Assembly: GCA_964459225.1 (NCBI GenBank)
Contig: CAYWKB010000001.1
Span: 354,777-418,776 of the forward strand
From: an uncultured Candidatus Saccharibacteria bacterium
GTDB taxonomy: Bacteria > Patescibacteriota > Minisyncoccia > Phycocordibacterales > PALSA-1337
Direction of reading: 5' to 3'
Length of the DNA stretch: 64,000 nucleotides
Under the pieces are notes generated by a model. That model saw nothing but the letters and a program-made list of their open reading frames with translations, was not told where the DNA came from and made no database searches. Positions 818 through 50,898 of this stretch are shown here, piece by piece. Each line of letters starts with the position of its first letter. Position 1 is the stretch's first letter. The position numbers and the translations under genes were made by a program.

Positions 818-1720
818 ATGGCAAATCGACACTTATCAAGATCAGTAGTACTACAATCACTCTTTGAGTGGGATTTCCGAGGTTGTCATGATGAAATAAT
901 TAAAGAAATAATCACCCGAGTTTCCAAGGAGTTCGCTTCTGGTATGGGTGATTTTTCTTTTATTGAAAACTTGGCAAATAATGTACTTTCAAAAAAGGCA
1001 GATCTAGATAAAATAATTGAAAAGGCAGCGCCAGATTGGCCACTTGATAAAATCTCAGTAATAGACAGAAATATTTTGCGAATTGGACTATATGAATTAC
1101 TTTTTTCAGATAGAAATGAAGTACCCGCAAAAGTGGCAATAAATGAAGCAATTGAACTTGCAAAGAGTTTTGGTGGTGAAAATAGTGGTAAGTTTATAAA
1201 CGGAGTTTTGGGTTCTGTATACAAGGAATTAGGTGAACCAGGCAAAGACAGTGCTCCAAAAAAGAAAAATAAAATAGCAGATATACCATACGAAGAAATG
1301 CCCATTCAAAACTTAGGCGGAGCAGTGGTATATGCAAATGACGGAGATGAAATATACCTAGCATTCGTGCACGATATATTTGGACATTGGACTTTATCAA
1401 AAGGTAAAATACCAGAAGGAGATGTAAAGGTTGGAACAATAGCAAAAGTAAAGGAAGAAATGGGATTGGATGTAGAAATCACTGATGATTTAGGTAAAAA
1501 TGAATATATAGCAAGTGATCCAGAAAAAGGAAAGCTCAGAAAGCAAGTACATTATTTCCTTGCAAAGACAAATTTTACTGATATAAAGCTCGCAGAAAAG
1601 CCAGGACTAGATGATGCAAAATGGTTCAAACTTGCAGACATACTTGAGCTAAATTTTTATGATGATATAGTACCTATTGTAACAAAAGCCATAACATTAT
1701 TGAGTAGTAAAACAAAATGA
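818..1720 (+). CDS. nusB: Transcription antitermination factor NusB (aa ~1-140) fused to a divergent NUDIX-fold domain (aa ~160-300)
   Basis: The N-terminal half matches NusB closely (LRIGLYELLF...VPAKVAINEAIELAKSFGGENSGKFINGVLG). The C-terminal half shows a Nudix-fold pattern (GGAVVYANDGDEIYLAFV...GHWTLSKGKIPEGD...KVKEEMGL) with an incomplete Nudix box. It is one uninterrupted 300-aa ORF. Confidence 0.7.
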   Translation: MANRHLSRSVVLQSLFEWDFRGCHDEIIKEIITRVSKEFASGMGDFSFIENLANNVLSKKADLDKIIEKAAPDWPLDKISVIDRNILRIGLYELLFSDRNEVPAKVAINEAIELAKSFGGENSGKFINGVLGSVYKELGEPGKDSAPKKKNKIADIPYEEMPIQNLGGAVVYANDGDEIYLAFVHDIFGHWTLSKGKIPEGDVKVGTIAKVKEEMGLDVEITDDLGKNEYIASDPEKGKLRKQVHYFLAKTNFTDIKLAEKPGLDDAKWFKLADILELNFYDDIVPIVTKAITLLSSKTK

Positions 1721-2415
1721 TGCCAGATTTCAATGAATTCGCAAATAAAATTAAAGTAGATTTTAATGATATCTCTTTATTAAAAAGAGCTTGTACTCAT
1801 CGTTCATATTTGAATGAAAATAAAGGTGCAGGACTTGAACATAATGAAAGATTAGAATTTTTGGGCGATGCCGTACTTGAACTTGTTGTAACTAGTTTCC
1901 TTTTTAAAAAGTTTCCAGATAGAGATGAGGGAGATTTGACTTCATATCGTTCAGCCTTGGTAAATACAAATAGCCTTTCAAAAGTCGCATTGCATATTGG
2001 TGTTGATGAATATTTACTTCTTTCAAAAGGTGAGTCAAAAGATACTGGCCGAGCAAGGTCAATAATACATGCAGATACTATTGAGGCGATTATAGGTGCT
2101 ATTTATATCGATAAAGGTTATGAATCAGCAGAAAAATTTATTTCTCAAAATCTATTTGAAGTTATAGACATAGACGATATAGTTAAAAATAAATTATGGC
2201 TTGATGCAAAAAGTCGTTTTCAAGAAAAAGCACAAGAAATGACAGGACAAACTCCATCATATAAAACAGTAAAAGAAGTTGGTCCAGATCATAATAAACT
2301 ATTTACTTTAGGTGTATTTATCGGTGATGTTCAAATAGCATTAGGAACAGGAATGTCAAAACAAGAAGCAGAACAAAAAGCAGCAGAAAAAGCACTTGAA
2401 GTTAAGGGATGGTAG
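1717..2415 (+). CDS. rnc: Ribonuclease III
   Basis: RNase III signature ERLEFLGDAVLELVV and a C-terminal dsRNA-binding domain. The start overlaps the nusB stop (ATGA). Confidence 0.9.
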   Translation: MMPDFNEFANKIKVDFNDISLLKRACTHRSYLNENKGAGLEHNERLEFLGDAVLELVVTSFLFKKFPDRDEGDLTSYRSALVNTNSLSKVALHIGVDEYLLLSKGESKDTGRARSIIHADTIEAIIGAIYIDKGYESAEKFISQNLFEVIDIDDIVKNKLWLDAKSRFQEKAQEMTGQTPSYKTVKEVGPDHNKLFTLGVFIGDVQIALGTGMSKQEAEQKAAEKALEVKGW

Positions 2416-2443: not shown

Positions 2444-4657
2444 ATGTATCTCAAATCATTAGAGATTTCTGGTTTTAAATCTTTTGCAAAAAAGGCAGTT
2501 TTGAATTTTACTTCTCCCATTTCAGCAATAGTCGGTCCAAATGGATCAGGTAAATCAAATACAGCTGAAGCATTTCGCTTTGTGCTTGGTGAACAATCTA
2601 TAAAAAGTATGAGAGGTAAGCGAGGTGAAGATTTGATATTTAATGGTGGAGGTGAAGGAGCAAGAACAAATAGAGCATCAGTTAAGGTTGTGTTTGATAA
2701 TTCAAAGAGAATGCTCAATATTGATTTTGATGAAGTCACTTTGGAAAGAGTTGTGCATCGTGATAATTCAAATGAGTATTTTATAAATGGTTCTCCTACA
2801 AGATTAAAGGATATTGTAGAGCTACTTGTCGGTGCTCATATCGGAGCTTCAGGACATCATATAATCTCACAAGGTGAGGCAGATAGAATTTTGAATGCAA
2901 ATATTCGTGAAAGAAGGGAAATGATAGAGGATGCGCTTGGACTTAAAATATATCAATACAAAAAGATTGAAAGTGAAAGAAAATTAGAAAAGACAGAGGA
3001 AAATATGAAATCCGTTGAATCATTGCGTAGGGAAATCGCTCCTCATTTAAAATTCTTAAAAAAGCAGGTAGAAAAAGTAGAAAAAGTACAGGAAATGCGA
3101 GAAGAGCTACGCAAATTATATAAGGAATATTTTAAGCGTGAAGAAGCATATTTAAAAAATGAAAAAGACAGAATACATGAAATCAAAAATCCATTAATTA
3201 AAGAATTAGCAGTACTTGAAACTGAAATAAATGAAGCAAAAAGAATATTAGAAAGTTCAAAAAATCGCGATGCAAAAAGTGATGAATTAATCGCTATTGA
3301 AAGTGCATTACATAATATACGTATAGAAAAGGATAAGGTAATGCGTGAACTCGGAAATATAGAAGGTGAAATACGTGTGGGTGAAAGAAGTATTTCAAAA
3401 GAAAAAGAAAAATTGGCTAAAGATGAATTTAAAACAGTATATTTGCAAGACGTTGAAGAAGTTTTCAATAAAGTTAGCCTCCTGCAAACAATTTCAGAAA
3501 TCAAAGAATTACTTTTTGGCTTTATTTCATCACATAAAAATAAAGTAGATTCAAGTTTAATAGCAGAAACAGAAAAAGATATAAAAATCCTTTTAGATAA
3601 AAAAGGTAAATTTGAATTATCTCTTAAGGATTTTGATAATCAAGAAAAAGTTAAAACACTTGAATACAATACATTAAGACAAAAAATAGAAATAGAAAAA
3701 GACTCAAATAGAGATGCAGAAAAAAATGTTTTTAGAATAATAGCTAGACAAAATGAAGTAAGAGGAATATTAAATGGTATTAAAACAAGTGAAGATAAAT
3801 TGAGATTAGAAGAGGAATCATTTAAAAGGGAATTAAATGAAGCATATGTACTCGTTGGTCGCGAAGCAGTGGACTATAAAGATATAGTAATCACACAAGA
3901 AGAAAGAATAGCTCAAATTGATAGACAAAAAAATATTGAAAAAATAAAAATAAGAATTGAGGATTCAGGTGCGGGAAATAGTATAGATATAATGAAGGAA
4001 TATAAGGAGGTTGAAGAAAGAGATGCTTTCCTTGCAAAAGAAATAACAGATTTAGAAAATTCAAAAATAAGTCTCAAAAATCTAATAGCAGATTTGGATG
4101 CAAGAATAGATGTAGAATTCAAAGAAGGAATATTAAAAATAAATACACAATTTCAAAACTATTTTTCACTTATGTTTGGTGGAGGAAATGCAGGCCTTAC
4201 AGTAGTTAGAGAAAATAAAAGAAAAAAGAAAAGTGATACAGATCTATCATCACTACTTTCAAATGATGGAGGCGAGGCGATAGAGGAAAATGAAGAAGGG
4301 GAAGAGGGAATAGAAATAAATGTAAATTTACCAAGGAAAAAGGTAAAAGGGCTAATGATGCTATCAGGAGGTGAGAGAGCACTTACCTCAATTGCTCTAC
4401 TTTTTGCAATATCACAAGTAAATCCTCCACCATTTATAATTTTAGACGAAACAGATGCGGCACTAGATGAAGCAAATTCAAGAAAGTACGGGGATATGAT
4501 TTCAAATCTTTCAAAGTATTCACAGTTGATTTTGATTACACATAATAGAGAAACAATGTCACGAGCAGGAGTGCTTTATGGAGTTACTATGGGAAGTGAT
4601 GGGGCTTCAAAGTTATTATCAATACAATTTGAACAGGCAGTGCAGGTGGCGAAGTAG
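2444..4657 (+). CDS. smc: SMC-family chromosome segregation ATPase, unusually short (737 aa), no recognisable hinge
   Basis: N-terminal head MYLKSLEISGFKSF...GPNGSGKSN (Walker A). C-terminal head LSGGERALTSIALLFAI...IILDETDAALD (signature and Walker B). The middle is a long K/E-rich coiled coil. It sits directly downstream of rnc, as in the Firmicutes rnc-smc arrangement. Confidence 0.75.
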   Translation: MYLKSLEISGFKSFAKKAVLNFTSPISAIVGPNGSGKSNTAEAFRFVLGEQSIKSMRGKRGEDLIFNGGGEGARTNRASVKVVFDNSKRMLNIDFDEVTLERVVHRDNSNEYFINGSPTRLKDIVELLVGAHIGASGHHIISQGEADRILNANIRERREMIEDALGLKIYQYKKIESERKLEKTEENMKSVESLRREIAPHLKFLKKQVEKVEKVQEMREELRKLYKEYFKREEAYLKNEKDRIHEIKNPLIKELAVLETEINEAKRILESSKNRDAKSDELIAIESALHNIRIEKDKVMRELGNIEGEIRVGERSISKEKEKLAKDEFKTVYLQDVEEVFNKVSLLQTISEIKELLFGFISSHKNKVDSSLIAETEKDIKILLDKKGKFELSLKDFDNQEKVKTLEYNTLRQKIEIEKDSNRDAEKNVFRIIARQNEVRGILNGIKTSEDKLRLEEESFKRELNEAYVLVGREAVDYKDIVITQEERIAQIDRQKNIEKIKIRIEDSGAGNSIDIMKEYKEVEERDAFLAKEITDLENSKISLKNLIADLDARIDVEFKEGILKINTQFQNYFSLMFGGGNAGLTVVRENKRKKKSDTDLSSLLSNDGGEAIEENEEGEEGIEINVNLPRKKVKGLMMLSGGERALTSIALLFAISQVNPPPFIILDETDAALDEANSRKYGDMISNLSKYSQLILITHNRETMSRAGVLYGVTMGSDGASKLLSIQFEQAVQVAK

Positions 4658-4668
4658 GGGGTAATAAA

Positions 4669-4703
4669 TATTGACTATATTGTAATTGTGTTATATATTT
4701 TCT
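4669..4703 (+). promoter_or_regulatory. Sigma70-like promoter (TTGACT - 17 nt - TATATT) in front of the orphan ORF at 4724
   Basis: TTGACT at 4670-4675 and TATATT about 17 nt downstream. A GGAAGGA RBS lies ~10 nt before the ATG at 4724. Confidence 0.35.
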
Positions 4704-4723
4704 GATGGAAGGAAATTTAAAAC

Positions 4724-4993
4724 ATGCAAAATATTGATATTCTATGGCAAAAAATGAATAAATATGAACGATTCGTTGCGTACTATATTGCAACAATTGT
4801 GGCAAGTAAACTTGGTCTCATCAGTCATGAGGATGGTAATCATGATATTGGTCCTACAATGCTCGGGATTGATTTTGAAAAGATGAATCCTGCCAATTTT
4901 CGTCCCGAGGTATCTAGATTAATCAACGAACGGATCACGAATGCGAATGACGACTTTACAACCGTTTATCAAAGACTTTTAGAATCACTCTAA
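4724..4993 (+). CDS. Hypothetical small acidic protein (89 aa), no recognisable domain
   Basis: ORF with its own promoter-like sequence and RBS. Codon usage (CGT/CGG/ACG/CCC) and GC are atypical for this AT-rich genome. Confidence 0.4.
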   Translation: MQNIDILWQKMNKYERFVAYYIATIVASKLGLISHEDGNHDIGPTMLGIDFEKMNPANFRPEVSRLINERITNANDDFTTVYQRLLESL

Positions 4994-5057
4994 TTCAACT
5001 CTAAAAAGAGAGCATTGGCGCTAGGCTATGTCAGGTAAGGAGGATCTCAAAATCACA

Positions 5058-5117
5058 CCCGCAATCTGAAATATGGTTGCGGGACTCAATTGAGCCCTCG
5101 ACTGAAGTCGAAGGTTC
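5058..5117 (+). ncRNA. Candidate structured RNA element: two adjacent stable hairpins in a locally GC-enriched intergenic spacer
   Basis: Hairpin 1 is CCCGCAA(5058-5064)/TTGCGGG(5077-5083). Hairpin 2 is GAGCCCTCGAC-TGAA-GTCGAAGGTTC (5092-5117), 10 bp with one mismatch. No U-tract follows either, so they are not intrinsic terminators. They lie 40-100 nt upstream of the ORF at 5157. Confidence 0.25.
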
Positions 5118-5156
5118 ATAGGGTAAGTTCTAAACAATTAAATAGAAAGGTTAGTT

Positions 5157-5606
5157 ATGTCAATTGGAAGTCCAGAAGAATTGCAAGGAGATCGAGATAA
5201 TTTCTTGTACTATACCTCCCAGTATTATGAATGGAGGAAGAAAAACAGAAGAGCTGAAATCATTTGTTTTAAAAATAATGGACGCCATCTTTTTCTTAGA
5301 CGCGAGAAATGGCTTCTCCAAAGCGAAAAATGGTTTCTCGTTCGATACAATAAATTCCGTCGTACACAAATATTACTACTGGAAAATGAAGAGATCGTCT
5401 TTAAACATGGTGCACATCTTGATAGCTCTAGAGGTGTTAAGAGTCCTGTTCGCATATTTCTCTTCAGGAGATATGCAAATAAAAAACATGGAGTGTTTAG
5501 TTCTGTTAACTGTAAAGAAATCACGATTCCAGTAAGACATCATTGCTACATCGCAGTGTATAGAGGGCGAGTGATCAGTAGTTTATTACTACATTTTGTC
5601 GGTTAA
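5157..5606 (+). CDS. Hypothetical very basic, aromatic-rich protein (149 aa); coding status uncertain
   Basis: GAAAGG RBS 8 nt upstream. Internal peptide repeat EKWLLQS/EKWFLVR. Three frames and both strands are open here, so it could also be non-coding. Composition is atypical. Confidence 0.3.
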   Translation: MSIGSPEELQGDRDNFLYYTSQYYEWRKKNRRAEIICFKNNGRHLFLRREKWLLQSEKWFLVRYNKFRRTQILLLENEEIVFKHGAHLDSSRGVKSPVRIFLFRRYANKKHGVFSSVNCKEITIPVRHHCYIAVYRGRVISSLLLHFVG

Positions 5607-5692
5607 GTTTATTCAGTGCAGTAAGTTTTCAACAATTAGATTTTAGATATTATTATATACATACCTATACCATAATATCTGAAATCTCGATA

Positions 5693-5727
5693 AAAGCAGC
5701 TCGTATTATTTATGACTGCTTTTTTTA
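5693..5727 (+). terminator. Rho-independent terminator candidate
   Basis: AAAGCAG (5693-5699) pairs with CTGCTTT (5716-5722), followed by a T7 run. The loop is large, so confidence is moderate. Confidence 0.4.
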
Positions 5728-5817
5728 TTGACCAAATATTTAAATTATGTAATTATAAAAAACGATTAGCTTTTTAAATCGTATAGTCAAAAAACCAACC
5801 AAAGAAATGGAGGAAAT

Positions 5818-6171
5818 ATGCGTGGTTTTGTACATAAGGAGCCAGAAGAAGTTTCGGTTATGATCAAGAAGGGTCATGGAACAGAACATGATTTAGAAGG
5901 TAGACTGATAACGGATGGTATTGATATTGTTGGTGGGGAATATAGAGGAGAACTCAGTATATTCTCCTATGCTCGTATTAAGACCGGCAGTATTGAATTT
6001 AGGGGATGCCACATAAGAGGTAAACTTGATCTCGAAGGATTAGAAATTGATAATGGTCAATTGATTATTTCTGATGTAACAGTAGATGGTCACCTGTTAC
6101 TTCCAAGGCTCTTGATCGGTGTAACTAAACTAAGTAACTTTAGAGTTCGTGGACAGTTAGTGTGGGTTTAA
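5818..6171 (+). CDS. Hypothetical beta-solenoid protein (bactofilin-like repeat pattern?), 117 aa
   Basis: Strong RBS GGAGGA 7 nt upstream. Repetitive G-x-hydrophobic pattern (IDIVGGEYRGELSIF...IEFRGCHIRGKLDLEGLEIDNGQLIISDVTVDG). Atypical GC and codon usage. A TTGACC promoter-like hexamer lies near 5737. Confidence 0.45.
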   Translation: MRGFVHKEPEEVSVMIKKGHGTEHDLEGRLITDGIDIVGGEYRGELSIFSYARIKTGSIEFRGCHIRGKLDLEGLEIDNGQLIISDVTVDGHLLLPRLLIGVTKLSNFRVRGQLVWV

Positions 6172-6196
6172 CCAAAAAGACAAACCCACTCACAAA

Positions 6197-6226
6197 AGCC
6201 GGAATCAACCCCGGCTTTTCTTTTTA
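6197..6226. terminator. Bidirectional rho-independent terminator between convergent genes
   Basis: AGCCGG (6197-6202), 8-nt loop, CCGGCT (6211-6216), then TTTTCTTTTT on the + strand and an A/T-rich tract on the - strand. Confidence 0.6.
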
Positions 6227-14341: not shown

Positions 14342-16102
14342 ATGAATGAAGAAAGGATTACATATTTTGGTCAAACCGATTCAAGAAATAAAAGGGTGAG
14401 TTTTGGTATTAAGGCCAAGGATCGTACTAAACATGTTTATGTAATCGGAAAGACAGGAATGGGAAAGTCTACCTTGCTTGAAAACATGGCTGTTCAGGAT
14501 ATTAAAAATGGTGAAGGTCTCGCTTTTATTGATCCCCACGGCAAGACTGCAGAGTTGCTACTTGAATACGTTCCTGAACATAGAATGAAGGATGTTGTTT
14601 ACTTTGCTCCATTCGATGTTGATTATCCTATTTCATTTAATGTTTTAGAAAGTGTTGATCCAGACAAAAGACATCTAGTTGTTTCTGGTCTAATGAGTAC
14701 TTTCAAAAAGATTTGGCAAGATGCATGGTCTGCACGTATGGAATATATTCTAACAAATACCTTGCTTGCTTTGCTTGAATATCCTGATGCAACACTTCTT
14801 GGAGTAAATCGTATGTTGTCTGATAAGGAATTTAGAAATAAGGTTGTTGCATGTGTTACAGACTCTGCTGTAAAGGCATTTTGGACACAAGAATTTGCAA
14901 ATTATACCGAAAGAATGGCGGCTGAAGCAGTTCCCGCAATTCAAAACAAAATCGGTCAATTTACCGCTAATGCACTTATTCGAAATATGATAGGTCAGCC
15001 AAAATCATCATTTGATATTAGAAAAATGATGGATGAGGGTAAGATTTTCATAATTAACCTTTCAAAAGGAAGAATAGGCGAGTCAAATGCAAATCTTTTG
15101 GGTGGAATGCTTATTACAAAAATATATTTGGCTGCACTTTCACGCGCAGATATTCCTGATAGGGTTTTAAAGAAATTACCGAATTTTTATCTCTTTGTGG
15201 ACGAGTTCCAGTCTTTTGCAAATGAAAGTTTTGCGGATATTTTGTCTGAGGCTAGAAAATACAAATTAAATCTAACAATTGCACATCAATATATTGAGCA
15301 AATGGAAGATGAGGTTAGAGCAGCTGTTTTTGGTAACGTTGGTACCATGATTGTCTTTCGCGTTGGTGCATATGATGCAGAAATATTAGAAAAAGAATTC
15401 GCACCTCAATTTACCGCAGAGGACATTGTTAATCTTGGAATTTATCAAATATATTTAAAATTAATGATTGATGGTATTAGTTCTGCACCTTTTTCTGCTA
15501 CTACCTTGCCTCCAATAGATAAACCAGAAAGTTCAAGTATGGAAAAGGTTATACAGTCATCACGTGAACAATTTGCAAATAAACGTTCCGATGTTGAAAA
15601 AGCAATCGATGATTGGATGGTGCCTATTAAGCCGACTCCAAAAGCTATGGCCCCAAAATCAAATAATATAATTCAATCAAATCAGATACCTTCAAATCCA
15701 ATACCTAAACCTAATCCAATTTCACCCACACCTACACCTACACCCACTCCAGCTCCAACACCTGCGCCTGTATCTATACCTGTGCAAAAACCAGTTATCC
15801 CTACTCCAATGCCAATTCAAAAAGTTGAGCAACCTTTTAAAAAAGCTTTTTCAGAAATTAAAATTGAAGAGAAGAAGCCCGAAAGTGTAAAACCAATATC
15901 ATTAAATTCATTAGTCAAAAATAAAAAAGAAGCAGACCCTAGAAAGATAGATGATTTAAAGAGTGCATTAGCATCAGTTCTTGCAAATAAAAAAGTTGAA
16001 GAAAAACCAAAGACAAAGGAAGAAAAAAATAATACCGAAAAAAAGACAATTCCAAATGAAATTCCAGAGGATGTACTAAAAAACGTACTTAAGGTAGAGT
16101 AA
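14342..16102 (+). CDS. VirD4/TraD/TraG-like (type IV coupling protein / DUF87-type) P-loop ATPase with a low-complexity Pro/Thr/Lys-rich C-terminal tail
   Basis: Walker A VIGKTGMGKSTL, Walker B YLFVDEFQSF, and ARKYKLNLTIAHQY, typical of TrwB/TraD-type NTPases. Residues ~430-586 are PT- and K/E-rich. Confidence 0.55.
   Translation: MNEERITYFGQTDSRNKRVSFGIKAKDRTKHVYVIGKTGMGKSTLLENMAVQDIKNGEGLAFIDPHGKTAELLLEYVPEHRMKDVVYFAPFDVDYPISFNVLESVDPDKRHLVVSGLMSTFKKIWQDAWSARMEYILTNTLLALLEYPDATLLGVNRMLSDKEFRNKVVACVTDSAVKAFWTQEFANYTERMAAEAVPAIQNKIGQFTANALIRNMIGQPKSSFDIRKMMDEGKIFIINLSKGRIGESNANLLGGMLITKIYLAALSRADIPDRVLKKLPNFYLFVDEFQSFANESFADILSEARKYKLNLTIAHQYIEQMEDEVRAAVFGNVGTMIVFRVGAYDAEILEKEFAPQFTAEDIVNLGIYQIYLKLMIDGISSAPFSATTLPPIDKPESSSMEKVIQSSREQFANKRSDVEKAIDDWMVPIKPTPKAMAPKSNNIIQSNQIPSNPIPKPNPISPTPTPTPTPAPTPAPVSIPVQKPVIPTPMPIQKVEQPFKKAFSEIKIEEKKPESVKPISLNSLVKNKKEADPRKIDDLKSALASVLANKKVEEKPKTKEEKNNTEKKTIPNEIPEDVLKNVLKVE
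15724..15770 (+). repeat. Short CCnACn microsatellite-like repeat encoding (PT)n/(PA)n
   Basis: CACACCTACACCTACACCCACTCCAGCTCCAACACCTGCGCCT, locally GC-rich. Confidence 0.5.
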
Positions 16103-48642: not shown

Positions 48643-50898
48643 ATGAATAACAATATAAATACAGTTTTGAAGTATGCGGTTATTATTGGGCTTTTTATTA
48701 TACCTTTTACTCCGCTTTATATAGCTAACACTTTATTTTTCCCGTTCATTGCTGGTAAGGCATTTATGTTTAGGGTAATAGTTGAAATTGTATTTGCATT
48801 GTGGCTTATACTTTTGCTAAGAGAAAGGGGTACAAGTACAGCTGGTACAGACAGGAGTGTTGCTCCAAGAATAAATTCACTCACAGTTACTGTTACTGTA
48901 TTTACTCTAGTTATCTTTATCGCCGATATGTTTGGCTTAAACTTCATAAGAAGTATTTGGTCAAATTATGAAAGAATGGAAGGATTTATAACTATATCTC
49001 ATTTATGGTTGTATTATATTGTTGCTACTAGTATGTTTGGTGAAGGTGAATACGCAAAGAAAAACTGGAAAGTATTTTTGAATATCATATTGACTGCAGG
49101 ATTCTTTACAGCAATTTATGGATTATTCCAATATTTTGGTAAGGCAGATATTCATCAAGGTTCATCAAGAATAGACGCGTCTCTCGGTAACTCTGCATAC
49201 ATGGCGGTTTATATGCTTATAAATGCATTTATCGCACTATACCTGGCAATAGTATCATTTAAAAATAAGTCTCTGATAGCATTATATTCAGTACTATTTT
49301 CTTTGTATTCATTTTTACTATTTCAAACAGCAACAAGAGGTACAATACTAGGTTGGATTGCCTCAGTTTTGGTAATTTGTGCAATTTATTCAGTATTTGG
49401 AAGAAAGTCTAAGGGTCAATCAAATGTATCAAGAGTTATCTCAGGTTCAGTAATAGTAATTGTAATCATCTCAGGTATTGCATTCTACTTTAATAGAGAT
49501 TCACAATTTATCAAAAATAATTCAGTTCTAGCACGTTTGGCAACTATATCTATTTCAGATACAAAGACTCAAGCAAGAGGATTTATTTGGCCAATGGCAG
49601 TAAAGGGAGTTATGGAAAGCCCAAAGACAATAATATTGGGTGTAGGACAAGAAAATTTCAATTATATTTTCAACAAAAATTACAATCCACTAATGTGGAA
49701 GCATGAACAATGGTTTGATAGAGCACACAGTGTGTTTTTGGACTGGTTAGTTGCTGGAGGTGTATTGGGACTTATTGCATATTTGTCACTCTATGTATTA
49801 TCACTTGTATACATATTAAAAAGCGATTTAACTATTGGACAAAAGTCAGTTTTGATAGGACTTATTACGGGATATGGAATACATAATATATTCGTATTCG
49901 ATAATCAAACAAGTTATATCATGTTCTTTTCTCTTCTTGCTTATGTACATTCGTTTAGAAAAGGCAAAATCAATAAAGTATTCCTAAATAAAGATAAAGG
50001 TTTGACTGAAGATTATATTACCGTTAGAGATTATGTCTGTATTCCAGTTGTTGTAATAGTATTTATTGCTGCGCAGTATTTTATAAATGTACGCGCTTTA
50101 CAGGCTAACAAAGCAATAGTTAACAATCTAATATTATGTAATGGGGGTGGCAAAAATCTTACAGTTAAAAATCTTGAAATAGTATTTAAAATGGATCAAA
50201 CTGTTGCAAATCAAGAGGCTAGAGAGCAACTTATGTCATGTATATCTGGAATAATTAATGGAGGAGATTCACAACAAAGAAAGGCAGAATTTTATGTATT
50301 AGCAAATAAAGAAATAGAAAAGCAAATAGCAACAACACCAAATGATGCAAGAATATATATTATTGCTGGAAGCTTCTATAATACAATAGGGGATTATAAT
50401 AAAGCTCTACCATTACTCGAAAAAGCACGTCAATTATCTCCAAGTAAACAAACAATAGCTTTTGAATTAGCGTTAAATTATATAAATACTGGAAAAAGAA
50501 AAGAAGCAGTTGAATTAACAAAGAGTACTTATGAATTAGCTAAGGAAAATGATTCAGCTAAGGTTGCATATATAATTTCACTTATATCAAATAATCAAGA
50601 ATCAATTGCAAAAACAGAGTTTAAAGATGATAAAGAGATATTTAAAGATCCAAGAGTTATAAATGCATATCTTGCAAATAAACAATACGCTAAAGCGATT
50701 GATTTATATAAAGAAATATTAAAGTCTAATCCGGATGATCAAAATGTATATTCTGCTCTAGCCTCAGCATATCTTATGGATAAACAAGATTACATGGCCA
50801 TTCAAACTCTTAAAGACGCTGCGGTTAAGTTTCCAATTATAAAGACTCAAATAGATTCAATAATTAAACAAATTCAAGAAGGAAAATTTAATCGATAA
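48643..50898 (+). CDS. O-antigen ligase/polymerase-family (Wzy_C) polytopic membrane protein with C-terminal TPR repeats; candidate O-oligosaccharyltransferase
   Basis: ~12 TM helices with Wzy_C-like topology. The C-terminal ~250 aa form soluble TPR-like repeats (ALPLLEKARQLSP..., AYLANKQYAKAIDLYKEILKSNPDD...). Confidence 0.55.
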   Translation: MNNNINTVLKYAVIIGLFIIPFTPLYIANTLFFPFIAGKAFMFRVIVEIVFALWLILLLRERGTSTAGTDRSVAPRINSLTVTVTVFTLVIFIADMFGLNFIRSIWSNYERMEGFITISHLWLYYIVATSMFGEGEYAKKNWKVFLNIILTAGFFTAIYGLFQYFGKADIHQGSSRIDASLGNSAYMAVYMLINAFIALYLAIVSFKNKSLIALYSVLFSLYSFLLFQTATRGTILGWIASVLVICAIYSVFGRKSKGQSNVSRVISGSVIVIVIISGIAFYFNRDSQFIKNNSVLARLATISISDTKTQARGFIWPMAVKGVMESPKTIILGVGQENFNYIFNKNYNPLMWKHEQWFDRAHSVFLDWLVAGGVLGLIAYLSLYVLSLVYILKSDLTIGQKSVLIGLITGYGIHNIFVFDNQTSYIMFFSLLAYVHSFRKGKINKVFLNKDKGLTEDYITVRDYVCIPVVVIVFIAAQYFINVRALQANKAIVNNLILCNGGGKNLTVKNLEIVFKMDQTVANQEAREQLMSCISGIINGGDSQQRKAEFYVLANKEIEKQIATTPNDARIYIIAGSFYNTIGDYNKALPLLEKARQLSPSKQTIAFELALNYINTGKRKEAVELTKSTYELAKENDSAKVAYIISLISNNQESIAKTEFKDDKEIFKDPRVINAYLANKQYAKAIDLYKEILKSNPDDQNVYSALASAYLMDKQDYMAIQTLKDAAVKFPIIKTQIDSIIKQIQEGKFNR

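What the first reader, a model, noticed from the sequence alone, without database searches (positions are those of the whole stretch)
2444..4657. Hinge-less mini-SMC (737 aa) at the canonical rnc-smc position
The protein has bona fide SMC head halves: the N-terminal FKSF and Walker A, and the C-terminal LSGGE signature with Walker B. It sits directly downstream of rnc, as the SMC gene does in Firmicutes. It is about 40% shorter than canonical SMC, and I cannot find a Gly-rich hinge dimerisation domain between the coiled-coil arms. That makes it architecturally more like RecN- or Rad50-type hairpins. The C-terminal head also carries an acidic insertion (EAIEENEEGEEGIE, nt ~4260-4320). No scpA/scpB genes follow.
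Basis: partly seen in the sequence, partly recalled or inferred. Interest (0 to 1): 0.55.

Follow-up and report, generated by a model that had tools for sequence, protein, structure and literature searches.

The report
Hinge-less half-length SMC of Patescibacteria
This gene encodes a natural "mini" version of the chromosome-organising SMC ATPase that keeps the motor heads but has lost the hinge domain and half of each arm, and it is the standard form across a large group of ultra-small bacteria, which makes it a ready-made minimal system for asking what the hinge and arm length are for.

Summary
ORF 2444-4657 (+) encodes a 737-aa protein with complete SMC head halves and no SMC hinge.

- **No hinge.** Pfam PF06470 is absent even at E<=10. 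It is found easily in 990-1191-aa control SMCs.
- **What is missing.** Profile alignment to canonical SMCs shows that about 450 central positions are gone: the hinge and the distal half of both arm strands.
- **What replaces it.** AlphaFold gives a head, a neck and joint, an antiparallel coiled coil of about 160-170 aa per strand, and a two-helix cap of about 40 aa.
- **Not an accident.** At least 360 protein clusters and 150 representatives at 50% identity share the architecture. All are about 690-800 aa, none has a recorded hinge hit, and those that carry a source name are Parcubacteria/Paceibacteria-type Patescibacteria. The gene sits in the conserved rnc-smc-(RNase R)-rpsP-khpA-trmD block, so it is the positional SMC orthologue, not RecN.
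- **Family signatures.** A 25-aa basic-then-acidic insertion in the C-terminal head and an arm length of about 160 aa are conserved family-wide.
- **Open points.** How it dimerises, whether ScpA/ScpB exist in these genomes, and whether it is the only SMC could not be tested.
- **Prior work.** "Hinge-less" SMCs were reported in 2025 for ocean sequences assigned to Actinobacteria. I found no description of this Patescibacterial family.

Verdict: a real feature, and a new variant of a known kind.

The parts
2444..4657 (+). Mini-SMC gene: 737 aa, including the stop codon
   Evidence: ORF list. SMC_N E 1.7e-61. TIGR02168 SMC_prok_B 532.4 bits. B. subtilis Smc head 5xg3 E 1.2e-87.
2444..2938 (+). 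N-terminal half of the ATPase head (residues 1-165), with Walker A GPNGSGKS at nt 2534-2557 and the Q-loop Q143
   Evidence: These residues are invariant in 95-150-sequence family alignments.
2945..3424 (+). N-terminal arm strand (residues 168-327): neck, N side of the joint and distal segment. It is collinear with positions 166-317 of canonical SMC.
   Evidence: AF2 helices 168-271 and 277-327. hhalign probability 97.6% to canonical 166-313. Full-length mapping.
3257..3271 (+). Low-confidence break in the N strand (residues 272-276, SKNRD). It is predicted in the same model as the break at 418-422; whether the two face each other in the coiled coil could not be checked.
   Evidence: AF2 pLDDT <50. 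This stretch is indel-prone across the family.
3425..3541 (+). Apex cap replacing the hinge (residues 328-366): loop, helix 334-346, helix 350-364
   Evidence: AF2. No PF06470. hhalign probability <1% to any part of canonical SMC. Conserved V332/[PS]333/V337 and F360; the V332-F360 spacing has median 42 aa (IQR 41-42) in the family and is 28 aa here.
3542..4063 (+). C-terminal arm strand (residues 367-540), including a break at 418-422 (nt 3695-3709) and the non-helical joint loop 471-487 (nt 3854-3904)
   Evidence: AF2 helices 367-417, 423-470, 488-508 and 510-578. Conserved L470-x-G472, Y478, R488 and Q491. Best PDB match is 5XEI, 'Smc head with coiled coil and joint'.
4064..4654 (+). C-terminal half of the ATPase head (residues 541-737): signature LSGGE at nt 4361-4375, Walker B FIILDE at nt 4433-4450, H-loop H700
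   Evidence: These residues are invariant in family alignments.
4211..4285 (+). Family-specific 25-aa insertion in the C-terminal head (residues 590-614; predicted disordered up to about 620). A basic KRKKK stretch is followed by an acidic run.
   Evidence: Insertion relative to B. subtilis and canonical SMC. pLDDT 42-48. Family consensus is KEKKRKRK followed by a poly-E run. Composition: 5 K/R and 10 D/E.
1717..2415 (+). rnc (RNase III), the conserved upstream neighbour that marks the smc locus
   Evidence: Pfam Ribonuclease_3 and dsrm on the identical gene in L001. rnc lies directly upstream in 15 of 19 related loci and in the Jorgensenbacteria loci.

Best explanation
This is the orthologous SMC (condensin-type chromosome-organising ATPase) of a Parcubacteria/Paceibacteria-type Patescibacterium, in a form that has lost the hinge domain and the hinge-proximal half of both arm strands.

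Shown:
- The ABC-type head is complete, with all catalytic motifs.
- The neck and joint are retained.
- The arms are about 160-170 aa per strand (roughly 24 nm), against 344 aa in B. subtilis.
- A helical cap of about 40-55 aa occupies the hinge position.
- A conserved basic/acidic loop is inserted in the C-terminal head.

Inferred:
- Two molecules engage their heads around ATP, as in every SMC.
- They are additionally held together at the far end by the conserved helical cap, much as RecN, MukB or the Rad50 hook dimerise without an SMC hinge.
- The strongly conserved neck and head cap still bind a kleisin.
- The joint still serves as the docking site for a loader such as ParB.
- The complex therefore organises and segregates the small chromosome by ATP-driven DNA clamping and translocation, as a ring or rod half the usual length.
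For: Identity as SMC:
- TIGR02168 scores 532 bits; RecN 44.5 and Rad50 43.6.
- The B. subtilis Smc head matches at 1.2e-87 for the single sequence and 1.9e-140 for the family profile.
- The Foldseek top hits are all SMC heads, best 5XEI (head + coiled coil + joint, E 1.5e-26).

Loss of the hinge:
- No PF06470, with positive controls.
- The canonical stretch 493-684 is deleted in the profile alignment.
- The apex profile matches no part of canonical SMC.
- AF2 shows only two short helices at the tip.

Selection:
- 360 clusters at 90% identity and 150 representatives at 50% identity are all about 690-800 aa (a few shorter entries, e.g. 584, 594 and 643 aa, match only part of the query), and the representatives are down to 41% identical.
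- Catalytic residues are invariant.
- Neck residues 161-220 are as conserved as the ATPase core.
- Arm length is narrowly distributed: N strand median 162 aa (IQR 159-166), C strand median 160 aa (IQR 155-165.5). This is close to the 163-aa minor mode of natural Smc arm lengths, and to 344 minus two periods of 91 aa, both from PMC5344682.

Orthology:
- The block RNase HII-L32-NusB-rnc-smc-(RNase R)-S16-KhpA-TrmD is conserved in divergent lineages.
- A head-only NJ tree places all hinge-bearing SMCs in one cluster that excludes every mini form.

Plausibility of working without a hinge:
- B. subtilis Smc stays functional with a Rad50 zinc hook in place of the hinge, and with arms shortened in steps (PMC5344682).
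- ParB docks on the Smc joint, which is retained here (PMC9449133).
Against: - No dimer model or experiment supports dimerisation through the cap. Across the whole family the cap is the least conserved segment in sequence, and AF2 confidence there is only moderate (pLDDT about 63-83).
- ScpA and ScpB were not found anywhere in the roughly 80 kb of this genome that I could see, nor near the gene in more than 20 related loci. Their presence in the genome is unknown.
- A second, full-length SMC or an MksB-type condensin elsewhere in the genome cannot be excluded.
- The NCBIfam score is below the curated cut-off (532.4 < 567.35).
- The function of the head insertion is unknown.
Confidence: 0.7

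Rival explanations
1. It is a kleisin-less, open SMC. The protein dimerises only through ATP-engaged heads, or zips into a rod along the arms. The cap is just a turn, and there is no closed ring. It would act as a DNA clamp or bridge, more like RecN or RecF-type ATPases than like condensin.
For: - No scpA or scpB in any DNA I could inspect.
- The cap is the least sequence-conserved segment family-wide and varies in length between subfamilies, 28 versus 42 aa.
- The outline is RecN-like.
Against: - scpAB is normally unlinked to smc, so its absence nearby says little.
- Conservation of the neck (residues 161-220 and 500-560) equals that of the ATPase core, as expected for a protein-binding surface.
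- The cap keeps conserved hydrophobic positions and a tightly fixed length in most members (IQR 41-42 aa), far more than a hairpin turn needs.
Confidence: 0.17
2. It has shifted function to a RecN/Rad50-like DNA-repair ATPase and no longer organises the chromosome.
For: The size and outline (head, short coiled coil, no hinge) resemble RecN. Weak hits to the RecN and Rad50 models exist.
Against: - RecN scores 44.5 bits against a cut-off of 407.85, and Rad50 43.6 against 700, versus 532 bits for SMC_prok_B.
- Neither RecN nor Rad50 is among the first 23 PDB fold matches; the first non-SMC entry, Rad50 (7zr1), appears at rank 24.
- The protein has no cysteine, so no zinc hook.
- It occupies the housekeeping rnc-smc-rpsP-trmD block rather than a repair context.
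Confidence: 0.06
3. It is an extra paralogue, and a canonical full-length SMC is encoded elsewhere in the genome.
For: Only about 80 kb of a contig of at least 523 kb could be inspected.
Against: - The gene sits at the ancestral smc position.
- None of the roughly 20 assemblies with a mini-SMC contributed a second SMC locus among the 80 loci kept.
- SMC duplications in prokaryotes are said not to have been described (PMC12153180).
Confidence: 0.05
4. It is an SMC-like component of an anti-phage defence system (MADS mad3, Lamassu LmuB or Wadjet JetC).
For: The PADLOC mad3 profile scores 186.6 bits. LmuB and JetC give weak hits.
Against: A housekeeping Paenibacillus SMC hits mad3 even better (242 bits), so the match is generic to SMC heads. 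LmuB scores 22 bits and JetC 23.8. No defence partners are present, and the neighbourhood is a conserved housekeeping one.
Confidence: 0.02

Closest known systems
Bacterial Smc of the Smc-ScpAB complex (B. subtilis Smc; TIGR02168)
   Same: - Head halves are about 45-50% identical, with all ATPase motifs.
- The neck motif (KEY-E-ERD-FL...DL) and the joint are present.
- The genomic position is the same, downstream of rnc.
   Different: - No hinge (PF06470).
- Arms are about 160-170 aa instead of 344 aa.
- A helical cap of about 40-55 aa sits at the tip.
- A 25-aa basic/acidic insertion lies in the C-terminal head.
- The score is below the NCBIfam cut-off.
Engineered Mini-Smc and Smc(zinc-hook) chimeras of B. 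subtilis (Burmann et al. 2017, PMC5344682)
   Same: Arms shortened by whole superhelical periods, and a hinge replaced by an unrelated dimerisation element, can still support function. The natural arm length here (about 162 aa) equals wild type minus two periods of about 91 aa, and lies near the paper's 163-aa minor mode.
   Different: Those are laboratory constructs. The shortest functional ones reported had arms of about 253-267 aa and kept a hinge or a zinc hook. This protein is natural, shorter, and has neither.
'Hinge-less' SMC cluster from ocean metagenomes (Sussfeld et al. 2025, PMC12153180)
   Same: SMC-type heads, an antiparallel coiled coil, no hinge and no CxxC hook. The authors regard it as unlikely to be a paralogue.
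   Different: That cluster was assigned to Actinomycetes and branches with actinobacterial SMC. This family is Patescibacterial. I could not compare the sequences, so convergence versus mis-assignment remains open. Some members of the present family do occur in Tara Oceans data.
RecN
   Same: A comparable outline: an SMC-type head and a short antiparallel coiled coil, with dimerisation (from prior knowledge) through the coiled-coil tip and no hinge.
   Different: Sequence similarity is only generic (44.5 bits against a cut-off of 407.85). RecN has no joint-type match and a different genomic context.
Rad50/SbcC
   Same: A head plus a coiled coil that dimerises through a small apical element instead of a hinge.
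   Different: The zinc hook needs CxxC. This protein has no cysteine, and only 5 of 147 relatives have any CxxC in the centre. Head similarity is weak.
Short-armed but hinge-bearing SMCs (Tenericutes/Bacilli about 985-1004 aa; Anaerolineae 1036 aa)
   Same: Natural reduction of arm length in small or streamlined genomes.
   Different: They keep a clear PF06470 hinge (E 1e-22 to 1e-25), and in the head-only tree they group with canonical SMCs, apart from the mini forms.

Membership tests
Prokaryotic SMC (Smc of Smc-ScpAB; TIGR02168 / Pfam SMC_N + SMC_hinge) | Bipartite ABC-type head: N-terminal Walker A and C-terminal signature LSGGE, Walker B, D-loop and H-loop | tested here: met
   The residues are invariant in the family.
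Prokaryotic SMC (Smc of Smc-ScpAB; TIGR02168 / Pfam SMC_N + SMC_hinge) | Central hinge dimerisation domain (PF06470) | tested here: not met
   No hit at E<=10. None in 7 divergent relatives, while 3 control SMCs are positive. None recorded in the precomputed Pfam lists of 360 clusters. The apex profile shows <1% hhalign probability to canonical SMC.
Prokaryotic SMC (Smc of Smc-ScpAB; TIGR02168 / Pfam SMC_N + SMC_hinge) | Long antiparallel coiled-coil arms (about 340 aa per strand, about 47-50 nm) | tested here: not met
   An antiparallel coiled coil is present, but with only about 160-170 aa per strand.
Prokaryotic SMC (Smc of Smc-ScpAB; TIGR02168 / Pfam SMC_N + SMC_hinge) | Whole-protein score at or above the curated NCBIfam cut-off (567.35 bits) | tested here: not met
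   532.4 bits. It is the top family by a wide margin; the shortfall is consistent with the roughly 450 missing positions.
Prokaryotic SMC (Smc of Smc-ScpAB; TIGR02168 / Pfam SMC_N + SMC_hinge) | Head-proximal neck and joint | tested here: met
   The best PDB fold match is 5XEI (head + coiled coil + joint). The neck motif aligns. The conserved joint loop is at 471-487. The C side is about 29 aa shorter than in canonical SMC.
Prokaryotic SMC (Smc of Smc-ScpAB; TIGR02168 / Pfam SMC_N + SMC_hinge) | Positional orthology: the gene lies downstream of rnc in the rnc-smc...rpsP-khpA-trmD block | tested here: met
Prokaryotic SMC (Smc of Smc-ScpAB; TIGR02168 / Pfam SMC_N + SMC_hinge) | Partner kleisin ScpA and kite ScpB encoded in the same genome | not testable with these tools
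   Only about 80 kb of the genome is reachable. There is none in the window, in the DNA just outside it, or near the gene in related loci.
RecN (TIGR00634) | Whole-protein score at or above the cut-off of 407.85 bits | tested here: not met
   44.5 bits.
Rad50/SbcC | CxxC zinc hook at the coiled-coil apex | tested here: not met
   The protein has zero cysteines. CxxC occurs in the central region of only 5 of 147 relatives.
Defence SMC-like ATPases (Lamassu LmuB, Wadjet JetC, MADS mad3) | A specific profile match and system partners in the neighbourhood | tested here: not met
   LmuB scores 22 bits and JetC 23.8. The mad3 hit is generic, since a housekeeping SMC scores higher. No partners are present.

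The most novel reading that the evidence does not exclude
A whole bacterial radiation, the Parcubacteria/Paceibacteria-type Patescibacteria, runs its only SMC motor without a hinge and with arms exactly two superhelical periods shorter than normal, and possibly without the ScpAB kleisin/kite partners. If so, neither the hinge nor the 50-nm arm, and perhaps not even a closed tripartite ring, is required for SMC-based chromosome organisation. These proteins would then be the natural minimal SMC for structural and single-molecule work.
Probability: 0.3. Interest if true: 0.8.

Novelty: new variant of a known kind. Interest (0 to 1): 0.62.

Why it matters
Current SMC mechanisms give the hinge and the long, length-tuned arms roles in dimerisation, DNA binding, loading and force transmission. 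A large, strongly conserved natural family keeps the heads, neck and joint but drops the hinge and half of each arm. Its arm length falls on the periodic series seen in B. subtilis mutagenesis. This is an evolutionary experiment that shows which parts are dispensable.

The protein is also compact: 737 aa, no cysteine, and an arm of about 24 nm. That makes it attractive for cryo-EM, single-molecule loop-extrusion assays and transplant experiments.

Hinge loss has now been reported for two groups of streamlined organisms: the Patescibacteria studied here, and the ocean sequences assigned to Actinobacteria in the 2025 paper. This suggests a link between SMC geometry and cell or genome size.

For annotation, these proteins are variously labelled 'AAA family ATPase', 'hypothetical protein' or 'Smc', because they fall just below the curated SMC threshold.

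Tried and rejected
- **Hinge remnant.** The apex profile (residues 295-385 and 318-372) compared with a canonical SMC profile by hhalign gave probability <1%. The N arm mapped at 97.6% as a positive control. Rejected.
- **RecN or Rad50 identity.** Rejected on scores, fold matches and the absence of cysteine.
- **Defence system.** The PADLOC mad3 hit proved generic when a housekeeping SMC was used as control.
- **Novel partner gene downstream.** The three small ORFs between smc and RNase R (89, 149 and 117 aa) have no family hits and are not conserved in relatives. Rejected.
- **Structured RNA in the window.** No Rfam match at gathering thresholds.
- **Hunt for ScpA/ScpB.**
  - All size-compatible window ORFs were scanned with Pfam.
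This is a weak test and gave no hit.
  - I extended beyond the right end of the window and inspected Jorgensenbacteria loci, including unannotated ORFs of 176 and 235 aa. Nothing was found.
  - The question stays open, because whole genomes cannot be fetched.
- **Literature.** I searched for Patescibacteria together with SMC, ScpAB or kleisin. Nothing specific turned up. One apparent hit concerned the host's scpAB genes, not the epibiont's.
- The AFDB fold library was not available. The first AF2 run, with a shallow alignment, modelled the head poorly (mean pLDDT 71) and was superseded by the run with a diverse alignment (mean pLDDT 80.8). The C-arm mapping onto canonical SMC is ambiguous because coiled-coil sequence carries little information.
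Full report
**Observation.** The window carries an ATG-started ORF at 2444..4657 (+) of 737 aa. Walker A (GPNGSGKS) is at residues 31-38, the signature LSGGE at 640-644 and Walker B (FIILDE) at 664-669. Pfam SMC_N spans residues 2-722 (E 1.7e-61), and no SMC_hinge (PF06470) hit appears even at E<=10. The best NCBIfam model by far is TIGR02168 SMC_prok_B, at 532.4 bits, just under its cut-off of 567.35. RecN scores 44.5 bits and Rad50 43.6. Against the PDB, the N- and C-terminal parts match the B. subtilis Smc head (5xg3, E 1.2e-87). The alignment exposes an insertion between residues 589 and about 616. The window is about 30% G+C. The gene directly upstream is RNase III.

**The missing hinge is not a sensitivity problem.** I ran the same Pfam scan on proteins recovered from a scan of public genomes. 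It finds PF06470 in a 1191-aa Paenibacillus SMC (E 7.6e-35), a 990-aa Tenericutes SMC (1.5e-22) and a 1036-aa Anaerolineae SMC (1.1e-24). It finds none in seven divergent proteins of 726-810 aa from the present family.

A profile of 146 family members aligned to a profile of 14 hinge-bearing SMCs is collinear for query 1-323 against canonical 1-317. It then skips the canonical stretch 493-684, which contains the hinge, along with about 170 positions of each distal arm strand. It resumes through the C-terminal neck and head.

The apex on its own (residues 295-385 or 318-372) shows under 1% hhalign probability to any part of canonical SMC. The N arm used as a control maps at 97.6%. The tip is therefore not a recognisable hinge remnant.

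**Predicted structure.** With a diverse 150-sequence alignment, AlphaFold2 gives mean pLDDT 80.8. The model contains:
- a normal head;
- an N-strand helix at 168-271 and 277-327;
- a tip made of a loop (328-333) and two short helices (334-346 and 350-364);
- a C strand at 367-417 and 423-470;
- a non-helical loop at 471-487;
- helices at 488-508 and 510-578 leading into the head.

No globular domain lies between the arm strands. The best PDB fold match is 5XEI, 'Smc head domain with a coiled coil and joint' (E 1.5e-26). The next 22 matches are SMC, cohesin or condensin heads. Rad50 first appears at rank 24 and RecN is not among the top 50.

The insertion (residues 590-614, disordered up to about 620) is a KRKKK stretch followed by an acidic run. 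The protein has no cysteine, which excludes a zinc hook.

**A large, constrained family.**
- The single-sequence search returned 120 clusters at 74-100% identity, all 730-756 aa.
- An exhaustive search of representatives at 50% identity returned 150 proteins down to 41% identity. Nearly all align end to end and are 690-790 aa; a few shorter entries match only part of the query.
- A profile search and a search seeded with a 34%-identical member each added 120 more clusters, of about 694-795 aa.
- None of these carries PF06470 in the precomputed Pfam lists.
- Source names include Paceibacterota, Parcubacteria, Minisyncoccia, and Taylor-, Wolfe-, Jorgensen-, Azam- and Uhrbacteria.
- In the genome scan, complete Patescibacterial proteins were 726-810 aa. 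Nearly all the non-CPR SMCs with a complete ORF were 1155-1235 aa, with a few hinge-bearing intermediates at about 985-1036 aa.

Catalytic residues are invariant. The neck (residues 161-220 and about 500-560) is as conserved as the ATPase core.

Arm length is narrowly distributed. From G166 to V332 the median is 162 aa (IQR 159-166). From F360 to E519 the median is 160 aa (IQR 155-165.5). The cap spacing from V332 to F360 has a median of 42 aa (IQR 41-42); the subfamily in this window has 28. The cap keeps a [VI]-[PS]-x-x-E-[VLI] helix start and an amphipathic helix ending in F360.

**Orthology.** In 19 loci the order RNase HII-L32-NusB-rnc-miniSMC-(RNase R)-S16-KhpA-TrmD recurs, with rnc directly upstream in 15 of them. 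In the distant Jorgensenbacteria branch, rpsP follows the gene directly. This looks like a contracted version of the Firmicute rnc-smc-ftsY...ffh-rpsP-khpA-rimM-trmD arrangement. That comparison rests on prior knowledge; the rnc-smc-ftsY adjacency is visible in the strain descriptions of PMC5344682. In a head-only neighbour-joining tree, all hinge-bearing SMCs form one cluster that excludes every mini form. The tree is crude and has no support values.

**Mechanism.**

*Shown:* an intact SMC ATPase head, neck and joint on a half-length antiparallel coiled coil that ends in a small helical cap.

*Inferred:*
- Heads engage around ATP.
- The cap provides the second dimer contact.
- The conserved neck and head cap bind a kleisin.
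- The joint binds a loader.

Published work makes this plausible. B. subtilis Smc tolerates replacement of its hinge by the Rad50 zinc hook. It also tolerates arm shortening, but only in steps of about 91 aa. Natural Smc arm lengths show modes at 238, 341 and 515 aa, and possibly at 163 aa (PMC5344682). The family's arm length of about 162 aa equals 344 minus 2 x 91 and lies next to the 163-aa mode. The exact figure depends on where the head and cap boundaries are drawn; by the paper's boundaries I estimate about 165-170 aa. ParB docks on the Smc joint (PMC9449133), and the joint is retained here, although its C side is about 29 aa shorter.

**What remains open.**
- I could not model a dimer.
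- I could not fetch whole genomes, so the presence of ScpA/ScpB, of ParB, or of a second SMC or Mks condensin is untested.
- No scpAB was found in the window, just outside it, or near the gene in related loci. Because scpAB is normally unlinked to smc, this carries little weight.
- The role of the basic/acidic head insertion is unknown.
- The role of the two predicted breaks at residues 272-276 and 418-422 is also unknown.

**Rivals.** A kleisin-less, open dimer is the main alternative. A functional shift to RecN-like repair, an extra paralogue, and a defence role are each disfavoured. An artefact or pseudogene is excluded by the breadth and conservation of the family.

**Novelty.** A 2025 paper describes 'hinge-less' SMC homologues in ocean metagenomes, assigns them to Actinomycetes and calls them a new kind of SMC biology (PMC12153180). 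My searches found nothing on a Patescibacterial hinge-less SMC. Databases label these proteins 'AAA family ATPase', 'hypothetical protein', 'chromosome segregation protein' or 'Smc'. I therefore rate this as a new variant of a known kind. It is real, widespread and informative about mechanism, but it is built from known parts.

Noticed in passing
window 818-1720 (+): NusB is fused to a C-terminal Nudix domain (300 aa). In Jorgensenbacteria relatives NusB is 154 aa, and a separate Nudix gene sits between khpA and trmD.
   Followed up: partly
window 4658-6223: About 1.5 kb lies between the mini-smc and RNase R. It holds three ORFs (89, 149 and 117 aa) that overlap other reading frames. They have no Pfam, PADLOC or Rfam hit and are not conserved in relatives, where smc is followed directly by RNase R or rpsP. 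Its origin is unknown.
   Followed up: partly
window 3257-3271 and 3695-3709 (residues 272-276 and 418-422): Two low-confidence helix breaks are predicted, one on each arm strand, both of the form S-x-N-R-D-A (SKNRDA and DSNRDA). They lie about 105 residues from the head and about 50 from the tip. The C-strand motif R-[ED]-A-E-[RK]-x-[LV]-[YF] is conserved family-wide, while the N-strand stretch is indel-prone. This could be an elbow-like discontinuity or a binding site.
   Followed up: partly
window ~16000-46000: A long island with low G+C (25-29%) encodes glycan biosynthesis and modification genes. It includes many SAM-methyltransferases, GT1, GT2 and GT11 enzymes, GtrA-GT1 and GT2-methyltransferase fusions, and a GMC oxidoreductase. 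A Wzy_C (O-antigen ligase-like) protein fused to TPR repeats lies nearby at 48643-50898.
   Followed up: no
window 14342-16102 (+): A VirD4/TraG-type type IV secretion coupling ATPase (TrwB_AAD_bind, T4SS-DNA_transf). I saw no other T4SS genes among the neighbouring ORFs I scanned; not all of them were scanned.
   Followed up: no
L001 1-7157 (same genome, upstream of the window start): A Type ISP restriction-modification enzyme (N6_Mtase/Eco57I/Type_ISP_C, 1043 aa), an unannotated 240-aa protein and a zeta toxin lie just upstream of RNase HII.
   Followed up: no
PADLOC profile PDLC04135 (mad3): This defence-system profile matches ordinary housekeeping SMCs strongly: 242 bits for a Paenibacillus SMC and 187 bits for the mini-SMC. 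On its own, a mad3 hit is not evidence of a MADS system.
   Followed up: yes
L061 10001-12433; L026, L042, L062, L069: SMC length varies between lineages in the scanned genomes. There is an 810-aa hinge-less form in an unclassified 'bacterium' MAG. Hinge-bearing forms of 985-1036 aa occur in Tenericutes/Bacilli-like and Anaerolineae MAGs, between the mini and canonical sizes.
   Followed up: partly
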